This document shows positions 12,060 to 50,982 of a stretch of 64,000 nt of DNA, piece by piece. Below the pieces are notes generated by a model. The model was given only the letters and a program-made list of their open reading frames with translations, searched no databases and had not been told where the DNA came from. Positions within the stretch are counted from its first letter, which is position 1, and every line of letters starts with the position of its first letter. This DNA comes from a virus. Lineage: Duplodnaviria; Heunggongvirae; Uroviricota; Caudoviricetes. The position numbers and the translations under genes were made by a program. The stretch lies in IMG/VR virus record IMGVR_UViG_3300031998_000020; one strand, written 5' to 3'.

Positions 12060-12524
12060 ATGAGAAAGTATAGAGGTTATTCAGAAGTTTTGCATGCATG
12101 GCTTTACGGCGATGCCGTGGCAGTTGCGGACAGTGTTGCTATTTGCAAACCAACCGACTTTGAATTTGATGGACACCATATCAGACAGATTGCTGATGGG
12201 CCATTGTATGTTAACGAATCGTCTGTAGGTGAATTTATCGGTAAGAAAGATATCAATGGCAAAGAGATTTACCTTGGTGATATTGTGGCACAGACTTATA
12301 AGGAGTACAATGGTCAGATAACACCTGACGTTGGCGAAGTTCGTTATGACGAAGTGAATGCAAGGTTTTACATTAGCAAAAACACGAAATACGGAGAGAA
12401 AAAGTATCCGTTTAGGGATAGTGTGATTAACAAAGATGGTAATGCCACTATTTGCCTGACACCTCAATACGAGGTTCTTGGCAATGTCTACGAAAACTCA
12501 GAAATATTAGAAACAATAAATTAA
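12060..12524 (+). CDS. YopX-domain protein.
   Basis: WLYGD...GEFIGKKDINGKEIYLGDIV matches the YopX core (TGLKDKNGKEIYEGDI). Confidence 0.7.
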   Translation: MRKYRGYSEVLHAWLYGDAVAVADSVAICKPTDFEFDGHHIRQIADGPLYVNESSVGEFIGKKDINGKEIYLGDIVAQTYKEYNGQITPDVGEVRYDEVNARFYISKNTKYGEKKYPFRDSVINKDGNATICLTPQYEVLGNVYENSEILETIN

Positions 12525-15430: not shown

Positions 15431-16759
15431 ATGGAAAAGTTGACATTTCAAGACATAAGAGATAGGGGTTTACTCTTATACGAATATATAAGGGGTTCTC
15501 AGGCTTATGGTATGGCTACTCCTACTTCCGACGAGGATAGGGGAGGTATCTTTATTGCCCCTCAAGAACAGCTTTTAGGCTTAGGCTTTGACTATCAGGA
15601 CGAGGTATCAGACGATAAGCATGATACCTGTTGGTGGGAGTTGGGTAAGTTCATGAATCTGGCCTTGAAGTGTAGCCCTATCGTATTGGAGGCGTTCTTT
15701 ATTCCAGAGGATAAGGTGTTGTACGTTCATCCTGTCTTTGCCGAGATACTAAAGCATAGGGAAGCATTCTTGACAAAGCAATGCTTTAAGCCGTTTAGCA
15801 ATTATGCTATTTCCCAGATTGAGAAGGCAAGGGGCCAGAACAAGAAGATAATGTGGGATATCAATGAGATGACAAGAAAGACTCCATTGGACTACACATA
15901 CACCTTCTGTAATCAAGGCAGCAAGAACATCCAGCCTTGGCTTGAGGAAAGAGGCCTTGACCAGAGGAACATTGGTCTGGTCAATATCCCTAACATGAAG
16001 GATGTCTATGGGGCTTATTATGACTTCGGACAGCATATCAGGCTTAGCGGAATCACAGAAGAATATTTTTGTAATCCAGAAGTCAGGGATGATAAATTCA
16101 TCAACTATTGTTGGGACCAGTTCAGTTATAAGTATAACACATCAACAGGTCGCTCATATGCTGATATAATGCATGAGATGTGGAATGATATTTCACACCC
16201 TAAAGGCGGTCATTGTGGTATTGTCTCCCCAAGTGAAGTCTCTAATGAAATACGATACAGCTCTCATGTAACCTTTTCGCCAGTACAGAAGGGTGATGCA
16301 CCTATATGTTGGGTAGTGTATAACCAGGGTGCATATGAGAACCATTGCAGGAAGTTCAAAGAATATGAGACGTGGAAGAAGAATCGAAACAAGGCACGTT
16401 ATGAGAACAACCTTGAAGGACTGGAAAAGGAGAACAAGGATAAGTTTTACGATTCTAAAAACTTCTCACATTGTTTCCGTCTTATCAATACTGCCATCGA
16501 GATTGCCAGGGGTGAGGGCATGAAGGTTTGCCGTAAGGGTATTGATGCTGATTTCTTGCTTGATGTAAGGAACAGGAAATACACCTATGACGAGCTTATC
16601 AAGCTGGTGGACGAGAAGAAGGTTGAGATGGATGAGGCAATGAAGAATTCAACATTGCCAGAGACCATTGATATAGACTTTGTCAATAACCTCCTGCTTA
16701 GAGCAAGGTCTGATTTTAAGTATGAAAACTTAAAGCTTACATATGGCAAAACCAGATAA
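15431..16759 (+). CDS. Nucleotidyltransferase-fold protein (pol-beta superfamily; GS...D.D motif).
   Basis: IRGSQAYGMATPTSDEDRGGIFIA fits hG[GS]-x9-13-[DE]h[DE]h. Confidence 0.6.
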   Translation: MEKLTFQDIRDRGLLLYEYIRGSQAYGMATPTSDEDRGGIFIAPQEQLLGLGFDYQDEVSDDKHDTCWWELGKFMNLALKCSPIVLEAFFIPEDKVLYVHPVFAEILKHREAFLTKQCFKPFSNYAISQIEKARGQNKKIMWDINEMTRKTPLDYTYTFCNQGSKNIQPWLEERGLDQRNIGLVNIPNMKDVYGAYYDFGQHIRLSGITEEYFCNPEVRDDKFINYCWDQFSYKYNTSTGRSYADIMHEMWNDISHPKGGHCGIVSPSEVSNEIRYSSHVTFSPVQKGDAPICWVVYNQGAYENHCRKFKEYETWKKNRNKARYENNLEGLEKENKDKFYDSKNFSHCFRLINTAIEIARGEGMKVCRKGIDADFLLDVRNRKYTYDELIKLVDEKKVEMDEAMKNSTLPETIDIDFVNNLLLRARSDFKYENLKLTYGKTR

Positions 16760-21989: not shown

Positions 21990-22050
21990 ACTGCTCGTAG
22001 TTTTTTAAATCATTTTTATCGTTTAATTTTCAAATTTGTTACTTACAACA

Positions 22051-23859
22051 ATGGTAGAAGTAAAGCTTAACAACAGTAACAAGAATCATTTCTATGGTAT
22101 GAGGGAGTGTCTCTATCTCTTTCAGAACCTCAATACCAATATCACGGAAGCTATGCTTGACAGAGCATGGGCAGAAGTAAAGGATGACAAGCAGAAGAGG
22201 GAGCTCTTTTTCTCCCTTATCTTCTCTATAGGTGATATTACTGCACGTCAGCACAACATCTTCAAGGGTGTTAAGATGGATAATGGCGGTAATGCAAACA
22301 GAGATTCTTTCTGGACTATCTTTAATTGGATAAAGGACAGAAATTGGGCTCAGTTCGTAAAGTTCCTCCATGCAGGTCTCTTCAATGAGTATCAGTGTTT
22401 CGACACACTGTTCCGTTCACGAGTCAAGACATGTAGCGGTAGGGTAGTTAAGGTGTATGACATCTTTGCTGACCAGACATACCGTAATGAGCTTGCCAAC
22501 TACGTGTACTCTATTGTTAATGGTAATAATACCTTTAACAAGCACCTTGTGGCTAAGTTCTTGACACTTCCTCGTCCATCAAAGAGAACAGGTCATACCA
22601 AGATGCTTGATGAGACAATGGCCGTTATGAAGAATAAGGCCAAGTTCCTTACCAAGCTGTCAGACATGGTAGGTTGGGAGTATGATGGCTACAACTTCAT
22701 CGGCTATCGTAAGTGGAGAAAGGAATATAACACTAACCTTGAGTCCGTTCTTTTCTCATCAGGTGCTATTAATGGTTTTACTCAGGACCAGTTCTTCAAG
22801 TGGCTTGAGCAACTGCCATCACAGGCAAGGTTCAGAGTCAGGAACAAGGTATCCTTCTCTAAGAAGGAAGATGATACTCTCAAGTGGCCAGTTCTTAAGG
22901 AGTGGTATAACAAGTGGGAGAATCACAAGGAGGAAATGCAAGCTGAACAGAGAAAGCTTGAGGAGAAGGTTCGACAGGGTGGAGCCTCTGAGGAAGACCT
23001 CAAGAAGCTTGCCAAGGTCAAGAAGGAGGCCAAGATTAACACTGGTGCTACAAACTTCAAGGAAATCTATGAGTCCATCCTTAGCGGTAAGGCAGATGCT
23101 CTTGCAGTTGAAAGCTTTATCCAGAACAAGGTGAACCTTCCTTATAATAGCCTGGTTATTATTGACGATTCTGGCTCAATGCGTGGGGCACCATTCAACT
23201 TTGCCACATTCCTGGCAACTGTATGCTTGATGAAGAACCCTGATGACGAGGCACGAAACCTCGTAGGCTTCTTTGCTAACGATTCACATTGGCATGCTTA
23301 CATTGATTCAAAAAAGCAGCCAAGCCCAAATAGTATCGTTAGAACTGGAAACATCAAGTGTGAGGCAGAACCTCTCATAGACCCTACACTTAGCTTTATG
23401 GAGAACTATAAGCGATTTGATTCTTTTGCTCACTCTGTGTTCAGTTGTCGTGGTACACATATTGATTCAATCGCAAGAGGTCTGAATGAAGCTTGTAAGA
23501 GAAATCCTCAGATGCTTGATGCACTCAAGAACTATCCAGTTTGGACCATTGTATCAGATGGTGATTTTAACAATCTGTATAGTCCAGAAGCATCTTTGAA
23601 TGACCTCATGAGACAGTGCCAGGAGTACTTTGGCTTCAAGCCTTTTATCGTAGGTATCGCTGTTGATATGTATAATAGCACTCCTAAGTATGAAAGGTTT
23701 AGCGGTATAGAGAATTTCCTCTACATACCAGCCAACCCTACTCTCATTGAGCAGTTCCTTACAAATTTCAGGGATATGGACACATTCGATGTCTATGCAC
23801 CACTACAGGGTTTGTACAGGACTAACAGGTATGAACTGGTTCGCCAGAACGTGATTTAA
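22051..23859 (+). CDS. Large protein with a vWA/MIDAS motif (IIDDSGSM).
   Basis: LVIIDDSGSMRGAPF is a classic DxSxS MIDAS motif. About 600 aa, otherwise unknown. Confidence 0.65.
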   Translation: MVEVKLNNSNKNHFYGMRECLYLFQNLNTNITEAMLDRAWAEVKDDKQKRELFFSLIFSIGDITARQHNIFKGVKMDNGGNANRDSFWTIFNWIKDRNWAQFVKFLHAGLFNEYQCFDTLFRSRVKTCSGRVVKVYDIFADQTYRNELANYVYSIVNGNNTFNKHLVAKFLTLPRPSKRTGHTKMLDETMAVMKNKAKFLTKLSDMVGWEYDGYNFIGYRKWRKEYNTNLESVLFSSGAINGFTQDQFFKWLEQLPSQARFRVRNKVSFSKKEDDTLKWPVLKEWYNKWENHKEEMQAEQRKLEEKVRQGGASEEDLKKLAKVKKEAKINTGATNFKEIYESILSGKADALAVESFIQNKVNLPYNSLVIIDDSGSMRGAPFNFATFLATVCLMKNPDDEARNLVGFFANDSHWHAYIDSKKQPSPNSIVRTGNIKCEAEPLIDPTLSFMENYKRFDSFAHSVFSCRGTHIDSIARGLNEACKRNPQMLDALKNYPVWTIVSDGDFNNLYSPEASLNDLMRQCQEYFGFKPFIVGIAVDMYNSTPKYERFSGIENFLYIPANPTLIEQFLTNFRDMDTFDVYAPLQGLYRTNRYELVRQNVI

Positions 23860-23877
23860 ACTTTTTGTGGCCCATAG

Positions 23878-23912
23878 GAGGTGGGTTTATAAAAAAAATT
23901 CACCTCCTATAT
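23878..23912 (+). terminator. Possible terminator hairpin (GGAGGTG...CACCTCC).
   Basis: 7-bp inverted repeat after the 23859 stop; weak U-tract. Confidence 0.35.
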
Positions 23913-23917
23913 AAAAA

Positions 23918-23965
23918 AGTTACGAAAATATTTGGTAGTATCAGATTTTTTTAGTAACTTTGCAA
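23918..23965 (+). promoter_or_regulatory. Bacteroidota-type promoter driving the noncoding locus (TTTG 23931; TAACTTTG 23955).
   Basis: aaatatttggtag ... TAacTTTG. Confidence 0.6.
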
Positions 23966-24082
23966 ACGGAATTAAGATGTTTTTGTCGTATTCCATTTGA
24001 TGAAGAAGTCACTTACAATAAGTACTATCTAGAATTATCAGATTGGTTATCTATGCAAGTTCGAGCCTTGTCTTAGGCGTAA

Positions 24083-24126
24083 GCCTTTGTGGTGGAATTG
24101 GTAGACACAATAATGTAAGATGTAGT
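24083..24126 (+). ncRNA. tRNA-Leu-like 5' half (acceptor GCCTTTG, U8 G9, class II D-arm, anticodon-arm-like ATAAT/GTAAGAT/GTAGT); no matching 3' acceptor strand found.
   Basis: Resembles the 5' 44 nt of bacterial tRNA-Leu, but CAAAGGC is absent downstream. Confidence 0.3.
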
Positions 24127-24138
24127 GACTTAAACACT

Positions 24139-24252
24139 AAGGAGATGGTGTAATGGTAGCATGCGTTAGCTTAGTGACACTATGTCACTTACAATATCAA
24201 TGCTTTTTGATTTTGGGTATCCGTGGTGTGGGTTCGAATCCTGCTCTCCTTG
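24139..24252 (+). ncRNA. Atypical 114-nt tRNA-like element. It has a perfect 7-bp acceptor AAGGAGA/TCTCCTT, U8, a D-arm GTGT-AATGGTA-GCAT and a T-arm GTGGG-TTCGAAT-CCTGC. It carries about 38 nt more than a standard tRNA between the D-arm and the T-arm.
   Basis: Perfect acceptor complementarity flanking canonical D and T arms. An internal hairpin AGTGA-CACTATG-TCACT would present a CUA triplet in a 7-nt loop, but position 33 is A, not U. Confidence 0.4.
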
Positions 24253-24373
24253 CAAATAAAGACACTTACAAAAACAACAAGTTTTCTACGGTGGTTCAAA
24301 TCCATCATTGTTCGAGCATGAACGATTAGTGTAGCGGTTCACACAAAAACAGTTTAGTGTCTTTCCTCGCTTT

Positions 24374-24409
24374 GATGGCATTCTGAAAAGGATGCCATTT
24401 TTTTTTGTT
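24374..24409 (+). terminator. Intrinsic terminator (TGGCAT...ATGCCA plus T9).
   Basis: 6-bp stem followed by TTTTTTTTT. Confidence 0.75.
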
Positions 24410-24411
24410 AA

Positions 24412-24460
24412 ATACTGTTAATAAATTTGGCAATGTCAGATTTTATCCGTACCTTTGTAT
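24412..24460 (+). promoter_or_regulatory. Bacteroidota-type promoter (TTTG 24426; TACCTTTG 24450).
   Basis: ctgttaataaatttggcaa ... TAccTTTG. Confidence 0.65.
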
Positions 24461-24484
24461 CATAATTTAAAACTATATTATAGA

Positions 24485-24796
24485 ATGGAAAGACTTAAAA
24501 ATAAAGAACAACTAACGCCAGGAGGTAAATTTTACTATTATAGTGATGGTAAAGTAGAAGAATACAAGGTTCTATGCTTTGAGCCAGACAATCCAGAGAT
24601 AATCTACGCCGAAAATCTTGTCACTAATTGTATAGAACGTTTCACTATTAGTGAGCTTATAGAAAATTTAAGGTGGGATGAAAACTGGGAGGTTTATGTT
24701 GGTGATTATGATATAGATTTCTTCATCAAGAAGAAAATCGAGTATCATAAGGCAGCGATTCAGGACCTGGAGGCCTTATTAAACGCTAAAAAGTAA
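24485..24796 (+). CDS. Hypothetical protein.
   Basis: The first ATG after the promoter; the ORF-track start at 24455 is a TTG inside the -7 element. Confidence 0.45.
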   Translation: MERLKNKEQLTPGGKFYYYSDGKVEEYKVLCFEPDNPEIIYAENLVTNCIERFTISELIENLRWDENWEVYVGDYDIDFFIKKKIEYHKAAIQDLEALLNAKK

Positions 24797-24802
24797 AGTA
24801 CT

Positions 24803-25324
24803 ATGAGGAAATTAAAAGATATAAAATTCAGAGGTAAAACCACTTTCGATTTCACGTGGGTCTATGGTGACTTAATGTATGACAAATTCGATAGTGCTTA
24901 TATACACAAACCCAATTTTAATCAAAATGGGGTTGACCCTGACACGGTAGGTCAATTCACAGGCTTGTATGACAAGGACGGCAAAGAAATATATGAAGGT
25001 GACATCATAGAATTCTACGAAATCGAAAGTTATTGCATTAATCCTGATTGTGAACCTCACCTGATAGGTTATGGAAACCGTCTGGTTAAGCATGCATGTC
25101 AGGTTATGTTTGACAACGGAATGTTTTGTGTTGACCTAGAAGGTGATTGTAGAATTAGACCGCTTTTGTATTGTGGTTTACTGGAGGGTGATATAGAAGA
25201 CTTAAAAGATTGGGTAGAAAATGATGATTATTTTGACACTGATGGGTATGAAATAGACGAATCTATCCTCGGATTCAAAGTGGTCGGAAACATCTTCGAT
25301 AATCCCGACTTAGATTACGTGTAA
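24803..25324 (+). CDS. YopX-domain protein.
   Basis: WVYGDL...VGQFTGLYDKDGKEIYEGDIIEF. Confidence 0.8.
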   Translation: MRKLKDIKFRGKTTFDFTWVYGDLMYDKFDSAYIHKPNFNQNGVDPDTVGQFTGLYDKDGKEIYEGDIIEFYEIESYCINPDCEPHLIGYGNRLVKHACQVMFDNGMFCVDLEGDCRIRPLLYCGLLEGDIEDLKDWVENDDYFDTDGYEIDESILGFKVVGNIFDNPDLDYV

Positions 25325-48429: not shown

Positions 48430-50982
48430 TTACCAATCCGTTATAATCGTCGCATTACTTGCTCCCCATTTATTAGATGGAACTGTACCCTTAAAATATA
48501 TCTTTGTCAAATTAGGACATTGATAGAAAATAGCTTTCTGGGCATTACCTGATGTAATCATGCTTATATTGGGGTTTTCAATCACAATAGAAGCAAGTGA
48601 AGGGCAATTTTTAAAAGCAGCAGTGTTCACTGTTTGTACCGAACTTGGTATCACCATAGCCGTTAGGCCTGAACATCCTTCAAAAGCATTCTCTCCTATA
48701 ATTTCCAAAGAACCTGGTAATTCGACGGTAGTCAAGGAATGACAGTCAAGAAAAGCCCCATTGTCAAGTAATTCCAAAGAATTACCTAATGTAACAGATG
48801 ACAAATTGATACACCAAAAGAATACGTTTTCACCTATACGTGTAACAGAATCAGGGATTGTTATGGAAGTAAGGCTTTCACAGTACATGAATGCACCGTC
48901 ATCAATTTCACTTACGGAATTACCTAAAGTAATAGCAGAAAGTTCAGTACAATCACAAAACGCACTTTCATCAATAAATTCTACTGTGTCAGGTATTGTT
49001 ATATTAGTTATTCCTGTACATCCAGAAAAGGCGTAATATCCAATACTTGTCACAGATGCGCCAAAGGTTATCCCCGTTAAGGACGTACATCCAGCAAACA
49101 TATCTCTTGGAAGTTCAGGAAGAGAATCACCGATAGTTACAGAAGTCAATTTTTTACAGTAAGTAAAATTGCCTGTGCTATTGTATGGCTCTGGCAAAAC
49201 AGTCACATTATCACCTATCACAAGATGTGTTATATTGGTAAAATGGCTAAATTCTATATTAGATGCGTTTGTTACAGAATCGCCAATAATCAATAGCCCA
49301 ACACCTGTCGTATTACCTAAAGTTCGAAAGTTGATATTCGCCGAAGAAGTGTCTACTGTAAGTGTAGTTACGTTAGTACAGCCTGAGAAAGCACCACCCT
49401 CAATTGACGTTACTCCGCTTCCGATATTCAGAGAACTAATACTCGAACAATTAAGGAATGCACATGGGCCAATACTTGTAACTGACTCTGGAATTGACAA
49501 AGTAGTTATTCCCACACAATTAGCAAATACATAGCCACTCAAAGATGTTATGCCATTTGGGATGTTGATAGACGTAACACTTGTACAACCAGAGAATGCA
49601 CCTACTCCGATAGAGGCTACGGTATCTGGAATGGTTATAGCTGACAAACCTGAACATTCAGCAAAAGCACCTTTACCAATATATGTCACAGTATCTGGGC
49701 AAAGCAATTGTGTCAGACTTTCACAATCAAAGAAAGTCATATCACCAATACGTCGTAATTCATTGCCCATTGTCACAGAAGCGAGGTTAGAACAACCTTG
49801 GAATGTTCCCGTCAGACTACTAACTGTGGTTGGTAGAACTATTGAAGTGATACTCGTACAACCAGAGAATGCACCTGTTCCGATATATGTTACTGATTCA
49901 GAAAGATTGATTGACTCCAAACCTGTACAACCACCGAAAGCATAATTACCAAGATATGTGATAGAACTTCCGAGAGTTATACTAGTCAGACTATCACACC
50001 CACAGAAAGCGTTATTCTCTATGTATGTAACACTATCAGGAATTGTAATACTGGATAGGCTAGTGCAATCTGCGAACATTCTATCACTGATATATTCAAG
50101 TTTCTCAGGCATATAAACCTCATTCAGTGCTGAACAGCCAGCAAGCATACTGTTAGGGACATACGTTACTGCACGGCTAAATGACACTTTTGTAATGCCT
50201 GGGTCACGATTGAAAGTGTAGTTTCCAGTAAAGCTGTATTTGGCACCTGCTGGCGAGTTATATGTAACATAACTATCTTCACCTATCTTGGTGAAATTGT
50301 CATGAAAATAATTCATATCGTAATAAACGTTGCCGTTCTCATCGCAAAAATTGCAATCATCCCCATTTACGGCAAGCCCTCTGACTTCTTCTATTGTATC
50401 TAGAAGAGAACCTAAGCCTAGATTGTCCTCTTGTAAAAGGAAACCAAATTCTTCATTATCATTCTCATTAATAAGGAACTTAGCTATCTTCATTTCGGTT
50501 GGTTCATCGACAGTGAGATAATAAAGAACCACGCCATAATATGCGGCATTCTTTGCCCTGTCATAATAGCAGATGCTATATGGGTTTATGGCACGGACTA
50601 TAATGACTGAGACCTCATATTCCGCAAAATCTTCGGCAGTATAATCTTCTGCACTACTTCTTGCCTCTGCTTCATCGTCTGAAATTGGCATCTCGCCATA
50701 CTCTTCGTCATAATATTTATAGAATTCCAAACCGTTCAAGTCATAGTTTGAATCCCTATACCACCAACCACCAGGACCCGTATAGACATTAGTAGGTAAT
50801 ATCCCGTGGAAGTCACCATTCAGTACGATTTTACCTTCACCCCATATTCGGCAAAAAGGCTCTCGATAATATTGTACCGTACTGTCCCCTTTATCATACA
50901 TGACATTATCCTTTGCTTCTGGATAATTGGCACTATCAGAGTACAATCCGTTTTTCAGAGAAAATTTTCTTAACTGTATCAT
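48430..50982 (-). CDS. BspA-type leucine-rich-repeat (LRR_5) surface-protein-like protein, 850 aa.
   Basis: More than 15 tandem units of about 23 aa (I.IPDSVT.IG..AF.GC..L.SI). This is the only large minus-strand gene in the window. Confidence 0.8.
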   Translation of the reverse strand: MIQLRKFSLKNGLYSDSANYPEAKDNVMYDKGDSTVQYYREPFCRIWGEGKIVLNGDFHGILPTNVYTGPGGWWYRDSNYDLNGLEFYKYYDEEYGEMPISDDEAEARSSAEDYTAEDFAEYEVSVIIVRAINPYSICYYDRAKNAAYYGVVLYYLTVDEPTEMKIAKFLINENDNEEFGFLLQEDNLGLGSLLDTIEEVRGLAVNGDDCNFCDENGNVYYDMNYFHDNFTKIGEDSYVTYNSPAGAKYSFTGNYTFNRDPGITKVSFSRAVTYVPNSMLAGCSALNEVYMPEKLEYISDRMFADCTSLSSITIPDSVTYIENNAFCGCDSLTSITLGSSITYLGNYAFGGCTGLESINLSESVTYIGTGAFSGCTSITSIVLPTTVSSLTGTFQGCSNLASVTMGNELRRIGDMTFFDCESLTQLLCPDTVTYIGKGAFAECSGLSAITIPDTVASIGVGAFSGCTSVTSINIPNGITSLSGYVFANCVGITTLSIPESVTSIGPCAFLNCSSISSLNIGSGVTSIEGGAFSGCTNVTTLTVDTSSANINFRTLGNTTGVGLLIIGDSVTNASNIEFSHFTNITHLVIGDNVTVLPEPYNSTGNFTYCKKLTSVTIGDSLPELPRDMFAGCTSLTGITFGASVTSIGYYAFSGCTGITNITIPDTVEFIDESAFCDCTELSAITLGNSVSEIDDGAFMYCESLTSITIPDSVTRIGENVFFWCINLSSVTLGNSLELLDNGAFLDCHSLTTVELPGSLEIIGENAFEGCSGLTAMVIPSSVQTVNTAAFKNCPSLASIVIENPNISMITSGNAQKAIFYQCPNLTKIYFKGTVPSNKWGASNATIITDW

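What the first reader, a model, noticed from the sequence alone, without database searches (positions are those of the whole stretch)
23918..24409. Promoter- and terminator-bounded noncoding locus packed with tRNA-like motifs, including an atypical 114-nt tRNA-like element and a hairpin presenting a CUA triplet
A 595-bp gene-free gap carries a consensus promoter (23918-23965) and a canonical terminator (24374-24409). Between them lie four tRNA-like pieces.

First, a class II tRNA-Leu-like 5' half (24083-24126): acceptor GCCTTTG, U8/G9, D-arm GTG-GAATTGGTAGA-CAC. It has no matching 3' acceptor strand.

Second, a 114-nt element (24139-24252). It has a perfect 7-bp acceptor AAGGAGA/TCTCCTT, a D-arm with A14, G18G19 and A21, and a T-arm GTGGG-TTCGAAT-CCTGC. 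It carries about 38 extra nt between the D-arm and the T-arm. That stretch contains a 5-bp stem with the 7-nt loop CACTATG (anticodon-like CUA, which would read the UAG stop if functional) and a second hairpin ATCAA...TTGAT.

Third, another T-arm GGTGG-TTCAAAT-CCATC (24290-24306), also without a matching 5' acceptor.

Fourth, 8-bp direct repeats GTTCGAGC at 24059 and 24311 bracket the region.

Possible readings are an intron- or insert-containing suppressor-type tRNA, a tRNA-like regulatory or decoy RNA, or tRNA-gene remnants related to attachment sites. Large Bacteroidota phages are known to carry suppressor tRNAs tied to stop-codon reassignment, so this is worth resolving.
Basis: seen in the sequence. 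Interest (0 to 1): 0.68.

Follow-up and report, generated by a model that had tools for sequence, protein, structure and literature searches.

The report
Three tRNA-shaped RNAs beside Ro-like gene
The gap holds three complete tRNA-shaped non-coding RNAs, not broken tRNA pieces or a stop-codon suppressor; two have their halves in swapped order, all carry a conserved tag, and they probably pair with the Ro60-like protein encoded next door in a crAss-like gut phage.

Summary
A Bacteroidota-type promoter (23931-23962) and an intrinsic terminator (24374-24409) bound one transcript. It carries three tandem tRNA-like RNAs, none with an anticodon arm.

- **Units A (24006-24131) and C (24258-24364)** are circularly permuted: T-arm, loop-capped acceptor stem, then D-arm. 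This is the topology of bacterial YrlA Y RNAs.
- **Unit B (24139-24252)** has normal order and matches Rfam tRNA at 36.5 bits.

All three carry one conserved module: a 5-bp helix GNYAC/GURNC followed by single-stranded UUACAAW. The "CUA hairpin" is the cap of this helix. Its loop is not conserved, and TAG is an ordinary stop here, so there is no suppressor tRNA.

The module brackets or interrupts well over a hundred tRNA-like elements in related Crassvirales contigs, with strong covariation. It also encloses the start codon of the upstream 602-aa gene in 42 of 46 loci. That protein's three best structural matches are the Ro60 structures.

Best reading (about 0.6): a divergent phage Ro60/Y-RNA-like ribonucleoprotein with a new recognition motif and translational autoregulation. 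This is a new variant of a known kind, not described in the literature searched.

The parts
22051..23859 (+). Gene for a 602-aa Ro60-like protein: helical N-domain plus vWA domain with MIDAS motif DDSGSM (residues 372-377). Proposed protein partner of the RNAs.
22035..22083 (+). Copy of the module around the start codon of the Ro-like gene: TTTGTTAC-TTACAAC-A-ATG...A-GTAACAAG. Proposed translational operator.
   Evidence: An equivalent paired module encloses or precedes the start codon in 42 of 46 loci. Outer pairs covary (UGUUAC/GUAACA, CGUUAC/GUAACG, AGGACAC/GUGUCCU). It is also present in a 30%-identical homologue.
23931..23962 (+). Bacteroidota-type promoter (-33 TTTG, -7 TAACTTTG) of the RNA locus.
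   Evidence: There are 22 matches in the window against 3.9 expected, nearly all in front of genes, most with the same 32-nt span.
24006..24131 (+). Unit A, a permuted tRNA-like RNA. In order: module 5' strand AAGTCAC + TTACAAT (24006-24019); T-arm 24055-24071; acceptor 3' strand 24072-24078; GTAA cap 24079-24082; acceptor 5' strand 24083-24089; D-arm 24092-24108; module 3' strand GTGACTT (24125-24131). No anticodon arm.
   Evidence: Covariance model R1, built without the window, scores 31.7 bits, E 2e-4. Sequence read.
24139..24252 (+). Unit B, a tRNA-like RNA in normal order. Acceptor 24139-24145 / 24245-24251; D-arm 24148-24162; capped module GTGACA-CTA-TGTCAC + TTACAAT (24174-24195) where the anticodon arm would be; T-arm 24228-24244.
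   Evidence: Rfam tRNA at 36.5 bits. Covariation in 17 relatives. Pair 1:72 changes from A-U to G-C in the closest relative.
24258..24364 (+). Unit C, a permuted tRNA-like RNA. In order: module 5' strand AAAGACAC + TTACAAA (24258-24272); T-arm 24290-24306; acceptor 3' strand 24307-24313; cap GAGCAT 24314-24319; acceptor 5' strand 24320-24326; D-arm 24329-24342; module 3' strand GTGTCTTT (24357-24364). No anticodon arm.
   Evidence: R1 scores 65.2 bits, E 7e-12.
24374..24409 (+). Intrinsic terminator ending the RNA transcript.
   Evidence: 11-bp stem, 4-nt loop and T-run; the only terminator-like site in 23500-24800.

Best explanation
The locus is a small operon of non-coding RNA. One transcript of about 435 nt runs from the promoter at 23931-23962 to the terminator at 24374-24409. 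It carries three tRNA-shaped domains, each with an acceptor stem, D-arm and T-arm but no anticodon arm.

Each domain is fused to the same module: a 5-bp helix GNYAC/GURNC, an unpaired A, and a single-stranded UUACAAW. In units A and C the RNA ends lie in the module and the acceptor stem is closed by a loop. This is the YrlA Y-RNA topology. In unit B the acceptor stem is open and the module is closed by a loop.

Inferred: the module is the binding site of the Ro60-like protein encoded just upstream. That protein also binds the copy of the module around its own start codon, so free protein would repress its own translation and the RNAs would titrate it. The tRNA-shaped part would then present a tRNA look-alike to some tRNA-binding host or phage factor, as Y RNAs tether Ro60 to effectors such as PNPase.

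Shown: the RNA structures, their conservation, the module, its position at the gene start, and the gene-RNA co-occurrence. Inferred: the physical binding, the autoregulation, and the effector.
For: **RNA structure**
- R1, built from 26 permuted units of other phages, hits only 24261-24361 and 24008-24129 in the 64 kb.
- Those 26 units pair in 94.8% of cells, and 21 of 26 pairs show double changes. 0 of 500 shuffles reach this; slid controls pair at 35-43%. The acceptor, D and anticodon helices were not used to select the units.
- Unit B's frame covaries.

**Module**
- 73% of all ACTTACAA sites in the loci have the exact complement of their own upstream 5-mer within +25..+140. With stems swapped between units the figure is 10.6% (maximum 16.3% in 1000 trials).
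- There are 232 sites on the gene strand and 6 on the other.
- Consensus G-N-Y-A-C-U-U-A-C-A-A-W-A and A-G-U-R-N-C.

**Link to the protein**
- The module sits at the gene start in 42 of 46 loci.
- In a protein-independent DNA scan of IMG/VR, 25 of 32 stretches with at least 2 paired modules carry the gene, against 3 of 88 without (Fisher p 2e-16).
- In the window, paired modules occur only at the gene start and in this locus.
- A 30%-identical homologue keeps UUACAA modules at its start codon and in an adjacent tRNA-like array.

**Ro60 likeness**.

**Precedent**
- YrlA has the order T-arm, capped acceptor, D-arm, and is encoded next to Ro60 in bacteria and phages (PMC4201824).
- Thermus phage phiLo Ro60 binds two adjacent Y-like RNAs (PMC12135203).
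Against: - No Pfam TROVE match, even at E 10.
- The YrlA Ro-binding motif GNCGAAN0-1G is absent. No Y RNA family appeared in the Rfam scan at E<=10.
- No PNPase, RtcB or other known Ro partner lies beside the gene.
- In other phages the same module flanks or interrupts tRNAs with intact anticodon arms. A role in tRNA processing would fit that equally well.
- There are no expression or binding data.
- Two homologues at about 25% identity show no module.
Confidence: 0.6

Rival explanations
1. The module is a processing or splicing signal, a functional analogue of the archaeal bulge-helix-bulge motif. An endonuclease and a ligase would remove it to mature intron-bearing, permuted or leader/trailer-paired tRNA genes. 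The Ro-like gene merely shares the signal.
For: - In other loci the module flanks ARAGORN-called tRNAs.
- It sits in the D-loop of tRNAs with good acceptor and anticodon arms: L004 5624 (GGU), L012 4814 (CAU), L023 6044 (GUU).
- It sits at the variable-loop position of permuted tRNAs with 7-nt anticodon loops.
- This spread of positions parallels archaeal and algal introns, split tRNAs and permuted tRNAs (established knowledge).
- An RlaP-type nucleotidyltransferase is encoded at 15431-16759.
Against: - The three window units, and L006, L016 and L017, have no anticodon arm, so removing the module cannot give a decoding tRNA.
- Anticodons differ between 85-95%-identical orthologues.
- The motif is one 7-nt single-stranded stretch, not two 3-nt bulges 4 bp apart.
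- No endonuclease or ligase gene was found nearby.
- A cleavage signal around the start codon of a conserved gene in 42 of 46 loci would destroy its mRNA.
Confidence: 0.17
2. The RNAs are real module-bearing tRNA mimics, but the module is read by a different factor (host or phage). The Ro-like protein is only a co-regulated neighbour.
For: All evidence for the protein-RNA pairing is by association: adjacency, co-occurrence and the operator-like copy. The protein's RNA-binding surface was not tested.
Against: - The co-occurrence is tight over a few kb (25 of 32 against 3 of 88).
- The module persists at the start codon down to 30% protein identity.
- The fold is that of a known RNA-binding ring protein whose partner RNAs are encoded next to it.
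Confidence: 0.17
3. Unit B is an insert-containing amber-suppressor tRNA (anticodon CUA).
For: A CUA triplet lies in a hairpin loop at 24180-24182 inside an element that passes the Rfam tRNA threshold.
Against: - The hairpin is the cap of the conserved module, and its loop is not conserved.
- There is no U33 or 7-nt anticodon loop, and ARAGORN is negative.
- TAG is a normal stop in this window.
Confidence: 0.01
4. The pieces are decaying tRNA genes or attachment-site remnants.
Against: - Every 'half' has its partner in permuted order.
- Covariation is strong.
- In the 97%-identical relative, changes inside the RNAs lie in loops or are compensatory.
- The locus has its own promoter and terminator.
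- No integrase turned up among the 20 larger ORFs scanned against Pfam.
Confidence: 0.02

Closest known systems
YrlA-type bacterial and phage Y RNAs with Ro60/Rsr (Chen et al. 2014, PMC4201824; Wang et al. 2018, bioRxiv 10.1101/312249)
   Same: - Permuted tRNA-like domain in the order T-arm, loop-capped acceptor stem, D-arm.
- No decoding anticodon.
- The 5' and 3' ends form the protein-binding stem, whose recognisable motif lies mainly on the 5' strand.
- Several copies sit in tandem next to the gene of a Ro-type protein.
- Also found in phages.
   Different: - The motif is GNYAC-UUACAAW, not GNCGAAN0-1G.
- The protein is not recognised as TROVE by sequence.
- The module is also found capped inside normally ordered tRNA-like RNAs (unit B). 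In relatives it occurs at the acceptor end, D-loop or variable loop of tRNAs that keep an anticodon arm.
- A copy lies over the protein's own start codon.
Thermus phage phiLo Ro60 with Yrl1/Yrl2 (PMC12135203)
   Different: - The phiLo RNAs were identified through the CGAA motif and lie upstream of the gene.
- No tRNA permutation series or operator copy is reported there.
- Sequence identity to the crAss-like protein is 13%.
Permuted and split tRNA genes with bulge-helix-bulge junctions (Cyanidioschyzon merolae, Archaea; established knowledge, not read here)
   Same: The 3' half of a tRNA is encoded upstream of the 5' half. A conserved helix formed by the transcript ends appears at several alternative positions of the tRNA.
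   Different: - There is no 3-4-3 bulge-helix-bulge geometry.
- The window units lack anticodon arms.
- The organism is a bacteriophage of Bacteroidota.
- No splicing endonuclease was seen.
Autoregulatory RNA mimicry (for example E. coli ThrRS operator, T4 RegA/gp32; established knowledge)
   Same: A copy of the protein's RNA ligand is placed over its own translation start.
   Different: Here it is only inferred from sequence. The protein family is unrelated.
DUF2828/DUF7788 vWA proteins of phages and giant viruses
   Same: Best full-length fold matches in BFVD (E 4e-11 to 8e-10, TM 0.55-0.66). One remote family member gives a weak DUF7788 hit.
   Different: I know of no function or RNA partner described for those families. 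That rests on memory, and my literature search turned up nothing.

Membership tests
tRNA (Rfam RF00005) | Acceptor stem, D-arm and T-arm scoring above the family's gathering threshold | tested here: met
   Unit B scores 36.5 bits against a gathering score of 29. Units A and C do not match in linear order.
tRNA (Rfam RF00005) | Anticodon arm: 5-bp stem and 7-nt loop with U33 | tested here: not met
   In unit B, 56 nt replace the 13 central positions. In units A and C the arm is deleted in the R1 alignment. ARAGORN finds 0 genes.
Amber suppressor tRNA | Conserved CUA at positions 34-36 of an anticodon loop, and TAG read as sense in the genome | tested here: not met
   The loop varies among homologues. 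TAG ends 17 of 110 ORFs, and treating it as sense gives no ORF extension.
YrlA-type Y RNA | tRNA-like domain in the order T-arm, capped acceptor stem-loop, D-arm, with the RNA ends forming a stem | tested here: met
   Units A and C. The family structure has covariation support. The definition comes from PMC4201824.
YrlA-type Y RNA | Ro60-binding motif GNCGAAN0-1G on the 5' strand | tested here: not met
   The 5' strands read AAGTCACTTACAAT and AAAGACACTTACAAA. The consensus is GNYACUUACAAWA.
YrlA-type Y RNA | Encoded next to a Ro60 (TROVE) orthologue | tested here: inconclusive
   The RNAs lie 147 nt downstream of a gene whose product is Ro60-like by fold. It has no TROVE hit by sequence.
YrlA-type Y RNA | Bound by Ro60 in vivo; tRNA-type modifications (TruB, DusA) | not testable with these tools
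   Needs immunoprecipitation and modification mapping.
Ro60 / TROVE proteins | C-terminal vWA domain with MIDAS motif | tested here: met
   DDSGSM at residues 372-377; D372, S374, S376 and D503 are invariant in 63 sequences. vWA folds are matched. The profile hits the Ro60 MIDAS segments.
Ro60 / TROVE proteins | N-terminal HEAT-like helical ring (TROVE domain) | tested here: inconclusive
Permuted tRNA genes processed through bulge-helix-bulge | 3' half upstream of 5' half | tested here: met
   Units A and C.
Permuted tRNA genes processed through bulge-helix-bulge | Bulge-helix-bulge (3-4-3) at the junction, and a mature decoding tRNA after processing | tested here: not met
   The junction has one single-stranded UUACAAW and one unpaired A. 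The window units have no anticodon arm.

The most novel reading that the evidence does not exclude
The GNYAC-UUACAAW module is a portable tag that crAss-like phages graft onto tRNA scaffolds at any sterically free position: the acceptor end, D-loop, anticodon stem or variable loop, in permuted or normal order. This would create a phage-private pool of tRNA look-alikes held by a Ro-like ring protein.

The anticodon triplets of these RNAs change between near-identical orthologues, or the arm is lost altogether. The pool would therefore act as an evolving set of decoys or shields against host anticodon nucleases and other tRNA-targeting defences. In some phages it could supply two-piece or tagged functional tRNAs, including UGA or UAG readers, that standard tRNA finders cannot see.
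Probability: 0.2. Interest if true: 0.9.

Novelty: new variant of a known kind. Interest (0 to 1): 0.76.

Why it matters
Crassvirales are among the most abundant viruses of the human gut, yet nearly all their early-region genes and intergenic RNAs are uncharacterised.

- **A concrete RNP to test.** The locus defines an RNA family with strong covariation support and a conserved 13-nt recognition module. It also supplies a candidate protein partner and a candidate autoregulatory operator. All three can be tested directly with gel shifts and reporter fusions.
- **A wider Ro60/Y-RNA paradigm.** The protein clade involved is invisible to Pfam's TROVE model. The tRNA-like body and the protein-binding module turn out to be separable parts that can be joined in at least four topologies.
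- **A practical annotation gap.** Many tRNA-like genes of these phages are missed or mis-split by ARAGORN and by linear covariance models. This applies to permuted units, D-loop-interrupted units and units with the anticodon arm replaced. It bears on reports of recoded crAss-like phages 'without a detectable suppressor tRNA' (for example bioRxiv 10.64898/2026.08.21.746148).

Tried and rejected
- **DNA similarity.** blastn of the locus against 50,697 phage records found nothing. tblastn of the protein also found nothing, so no cultured relative is available for annotation transfer.
- **Sequence-family searches for the protein.** Pfam at E<=10, NCBIfam and single-sequence PDB searches gave nothing useful.
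- **First structure model.** It used a shallow alignment and reached only pTM 0.46, so it was suggestive only. I repeated it with 63 diverse sequences.
- **AFDB Foldseek.** The library was unavailable.
- **RNA-repair partners near the gene.** I looked for RtcB, ligase and PNPase. Only an RlaP-type nucleotidyltransferase turned up, 5 kb upstream. Nothing appeared in a related 96-kb contig.
- **A proximal helix next to the module.** No fixed-register helix emerged from the pair-fraction matrix.
- **Leader-trailer pairing.** I asked whether handle-flanked 'standard' tRNAs have leader-trailer pairing beyond the acceptor stem that would block RNase P or RNase Z. The result was noisy, and I make no claim.
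- **'CUUACAA' as a tRNA-Val-like anticodon loop.** Rejected, because the flanking bases do not pair locally and covariation supports the distal GURNC partner.
- **Promoter or terminal-inverted-repeat readings of the motif.** Rejected, because the two helix strands covary and the spacing between them varies from 25 to 140 nt.
- **MFE folding of unit B alone.** Uninformative, z = -1.27.

Full report
**Context.** The window is a stretch of a crAss-like phage genome.
- It consists of densely packed small plus-strand genes, including YopX, an RlaP-type nucleotidyltransferase and a BspA-type LRR protein.
- Homologues of the gene next to the finding lie on contigs of 95-105 kb and 170-185 kb. One carries the public name 'Crassvirales sp.'.
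- Bacteroidota-type promoters TTTG-N(17-23)-TAnnTTTG occur 22 times against 3.9 expected.
- The code is standard. TAG ends 17 of 110 plus-strand ORFs, and treating TAG as sense lengthens nothing.

**Checking the observation.** The gene-free gap, the terminator and a promoter (23931-23962) are all there.
- Rfam's tRNA model hits 24139-24252 at 36.5 bits (gathering score 29). It is the only Rfam hit in the 64 kb, and 56 nt stand in for the core of the anticodon arm.
- ARAGORN finds no tRNA in the window.
- The other 'fragments' are also present at the stated coordinates.

**What the pieces are.** Reading the sequence against a homologous locus (L001) showed a repeated motif, (G/A)NCAC-TTACAA, at 24009, 24184 and 24261. 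It also showed that the 'fragments' join up if the gene order is circularly permuted.
- *Unit A (24006-24131).* In order: AAGUCAC-UUACAAU, a linker, T-arm GCAAG-UUCGAGC-CUUGU, acceptor 3' strand CUUAGGC, GUAA loop, acceptor 5' strand GCCUUUG, U8 G9, D-arm, a linker, then UA-GUGACUU pairing back to the 5' end.
- *Unit C (24258-24364).* It has the same plan, with a perfect 7-bp acceptor (AUUGUUC/GAACGAU) capped by GAGCAU.
- *Unit B (24139-24252).* It has normal order, with the same helix as a capped hairpin (GUGACA-CUA-UGUCAC) followed by UUACAAU where the anticodon arm should be.

**Test with independent sequences.** I fetched 43 loci around homologues of the upstream gene.
- Twenty-six permuted units from other phages were aligned (A2).
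- The structure comprises the module helix, T-arm, capped acceptor, D-arm and anticodon arm. It pairs in 94.8% of cells, and 21 of 26 pairs change on both sides. 0 of 500 shuffles reach the observed values, and slid controls pair at 35-43%.
- The module helix, and partly the T-arm, were used to pick the units. The acceptor, D and anticodon helices were not. All 7 acceptor pairs and all 5 anticodon-stem pairs covary.
- A covariance model from A2 (R1) finds exactly two hits in the window: 24261-24361 (65.2 bits, E 7e-12) and 24008-24129 (31.7 bits, E 2e-4). In both, the anticodon arm is deleted.
- Unit B's acceptor, D and T helices pair in 97.4% of cells across 17 relatives, and all 7 acceptor pairs covary.
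- The closest relative (97% identical locus) differs inside the RNAs only in loops, plus one compensatory A-U to G-C change at pair 1:72 of unit B.

**The module.**
- With no pre-selection for pairing, 170 of 233 ACTTACAA sites in the loci have the exact reverse complement of their own upstream 5-mer within +25..+140. With stems swapped between units the figure is 10.6% (maximum 16.3% in 1000 trials).
- The motif is on the gene strand 232 times and on the other strand 6 times.
- The consensus is 5'-G-N-Y-A-C-U-U-A-C-A-A-W-A and 5'-A-G-U-R-N-C. That is a 5-bp helix with two free pairs, an unpaired A, and a single-stranded UUACAAW.
- Across the loci the module is attached to tRNA scaffolds in four ways:
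  - open, around ARAGORN-called tRNAs (Thr, Lys, Asn, Pro, Ile, Leu, Gln);
  - open, at the variable-loop or anticodon-stem position of permuted units with capped acceptors;
  - capped, replacing the anticodon arm (unit B type);
  - capped, inside the D-loop of tRNAs with good anticodon arms.
- The capping loop is not conserved.

**The neighbour gene.** The 602-aa product (22051-23859) has no Pfam family. It does hit phrog_850 'RNA-binding protein', and it has a MIDAS motif.
- With a 63-sequence alignment (A3) the model reached pLDDT 87.9 and pTM 0.79.
- Everything else is an isolated vWA domain with 134-196 aa aligned.
- The A3 profile has only 7 PDB sequence hits at E<=10, and 4 of them are Ro60 proteins.
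- BFVD gives full-length matches to viral vWA/DUF7788 proteins and to a 'TROVE domain-containing protein' of a crAss-like phage.
- I call the protein Ro60-like. This is supported but not proven, because the margin over vWA-only hits is modest.

**Linking RNA and protein.** Three lines of association support the link.
1. The module also encloses or precedes the start codon of this gene in 42 of 46 loci. In the window it reads UUUGUUAC-UUACAAC-A-AUG...A-GUAACAAG at 22035-22083. Pairs covary between lineages.
2. In the 64-kb window, paired modules occur only there and in the RNA locus.
3. A DNA-pattern scan of IMG/VR that did not use the protein returned 120 stretches, many of them chance matches. 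Of 32 with at least 2 Watson-Crick-paired modules, 25 carry the gene within the few kb held. Of the other 88, 3 do (Fisher p 2e-16).

In addition, a 30%-identical homologue (L168) keeps a UUACAA module over its start codon and in an adjacent tRNA-like array, although its helix sequences differ. Two homologues at about 25% identity show none.

**Comparison with what is known.** Chen et al. 2014 (PMC4201824) describe YrlA Y RNAs.
- The 5' strand carries the Ro60 motif. Then come a variable region, a T-arm, a capped 'acceptor' stem-loop and a D-arm.
- They are encoded next to Ro60 in more than 250 bacteria and phages.
- The M. smegmatis RNA has a 7-bp acceptor stem that RNase P cuts and that receives CCA.
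- PMC12135203 shows that a phage Ro60 binds adjacent Y-like RNAs and can recruit host PNPase.

Units A and C share the YrlA topology and gene neighbourhood but not its GNCGAAN0-1G motif. The protein shares the Ro60 fold class but not a detectable TROVE signature. I found no paper in the library linking Crassvirales to Ro60, Y RNAs or permuted tRNAs.

**Mechanism.** I favour a divergent Ro60/Y-RNA-like ribonucleoprotein (about 0.6). The protein would bind the module, the operator copy would give translational feedback, and the tRNA-shaped body would engage a tRNA-binding factor.
- Binding, feedback and the effector are all inferred.
- The main rival (about 0.17) is that the module is a processing or splicing signal for unusual tRNA genes. 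It is attractive for relatives with intact anticodon arms. It fits this locus poorly because no unit here could decode, and a cleavage signal over the gene's own start codon would be odd.
- A second rival (about 0.17) keeps the RNAs but assigns the module to another factor.
- The suppressor-tRNA and pseudogene/att-site readings are contradicted.

**Verdict.** The finding is real and richer than described. It is a new variant of a known kind (phage Ro60/Y-RNA-like system) with a new motif, several topologies, and a large undescribed RNA family in abundant gut and oral phages.

Noticed in passing
L013 4922-5030, L014 4974-5088, L015 4871-4982, L020 4986-5092, L034 5028-5137 (alignment A2): Orthologous permuted tRNA-like units that are 85-95% identical elsewhere keep C32, U33, A37 and A38. 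They carry five different anticodons: GUU, UUU, GAU, GUC and UCA. L013 and L034 are 95% identical outside the anticodon and differ at all three anticodon bases. In L006, L016, L017 and the window, the arm is deleted. This suggests rapid anticodon turnover or dispensability.
   Followed up: partly
L034 5028-5137: One permuted unit has a canonical 7-nt loop CUUCAAA, with anticodon UCA, which would read UGA. Standard tRNA finders do not see it. This may matter for recoded crAss-like phages reported to lack a suppressor tRNA.
   Followed up: no
L004 5624-5746, L012 4814-4934, L021 5299-5426, L023 6044-6167: These tRNAs have GC-rich 7-bp acceptors and normal anticodon arms (GGU, CAU, GCU, GUU). Each carries an insertion of about 55 nt with the capped module inside the D-loop. 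ARAGORN does not call them.
   Followed up: partly
L009 4488-4563 and 5284-5358; L010 4708-4783; L016 4761-4834; L034 4802-4877: ARAGORN reports module-flanked tRNAs with 8-nt anticodon loops (four-base 'anticodons' uucu, uugg, uuug). They may be degenerate mimics or frameshift-type tRNAs.
   Followed up: no
window 23874-23910: A 10-bp hairpin, ATAGGAGGTG...CACCTCCTAT, lies directly after the stop codon of the Ro-like gene. It is followed by an A-rich rather than T-rich tract, and the closest relative keeps it. Its role is unknown: a possible atypical terminator or a processing site.
   Followed up: no
window, 22 sites (e.g. 4782, 8514, 11714, 14554, 21473, 23931, 24426, 28271, 30661, 33673, 44761, 51057, 52627, 54578, 57873): A strongly stereotyped promoter-like element of fixed 32-nt span, TTTGGTnnTnT...TAyCTTTG, sits in front of many gene blocks. 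It is far more uniform than the generic Bacteroidota consensus requires, and may define one temporal class of phage promoters.
   Followed up: partly
window 15431-16759: A 442-aa nucleotidyltransferase (Pfam RlaP, 'RNA repair pathway DNA polymerase beta family'; phrog_388) lies about 5 kb upstream of the Ro-like gene. A link to the tRNA-like RNAs, such as 3'-end addition, is possible.
   Followed up: no
window 48430-50982 (minus strand): An 850-aa BspA-type leucine-rich-repeat protein is one of the few minus-strand genes in the window. The local GC skew changes around 48-54 kb.
   Followed up: no
window 12060-12524 and 24803-25324: Two YopX-family paralogues. One sits two genes downstream of the RNA locus, and the closest relative keeps it there (L166).
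   Followed up: no
L168 5480-6700: The 30%-identical homologue has a 1.5-kb gene-free array of tRNA-like units. Its modules keep UUACAA, but the helix no longer ends in AC/GU (for example AACAAG/CUUGUU, AUAGG/CUUAU). UUACAA therefore looks like the invariant determinant.
   Followed up: partly
L009 792-1179; L031 1189-1699; L167 146-218: ARAGORN calls tmRNA-like genes and a tRNA-SeC(tca) upstream of the Ro-like gene in some relatives. These could be further unusual tRNA-like RNAs or false calls.
   Followed up: no
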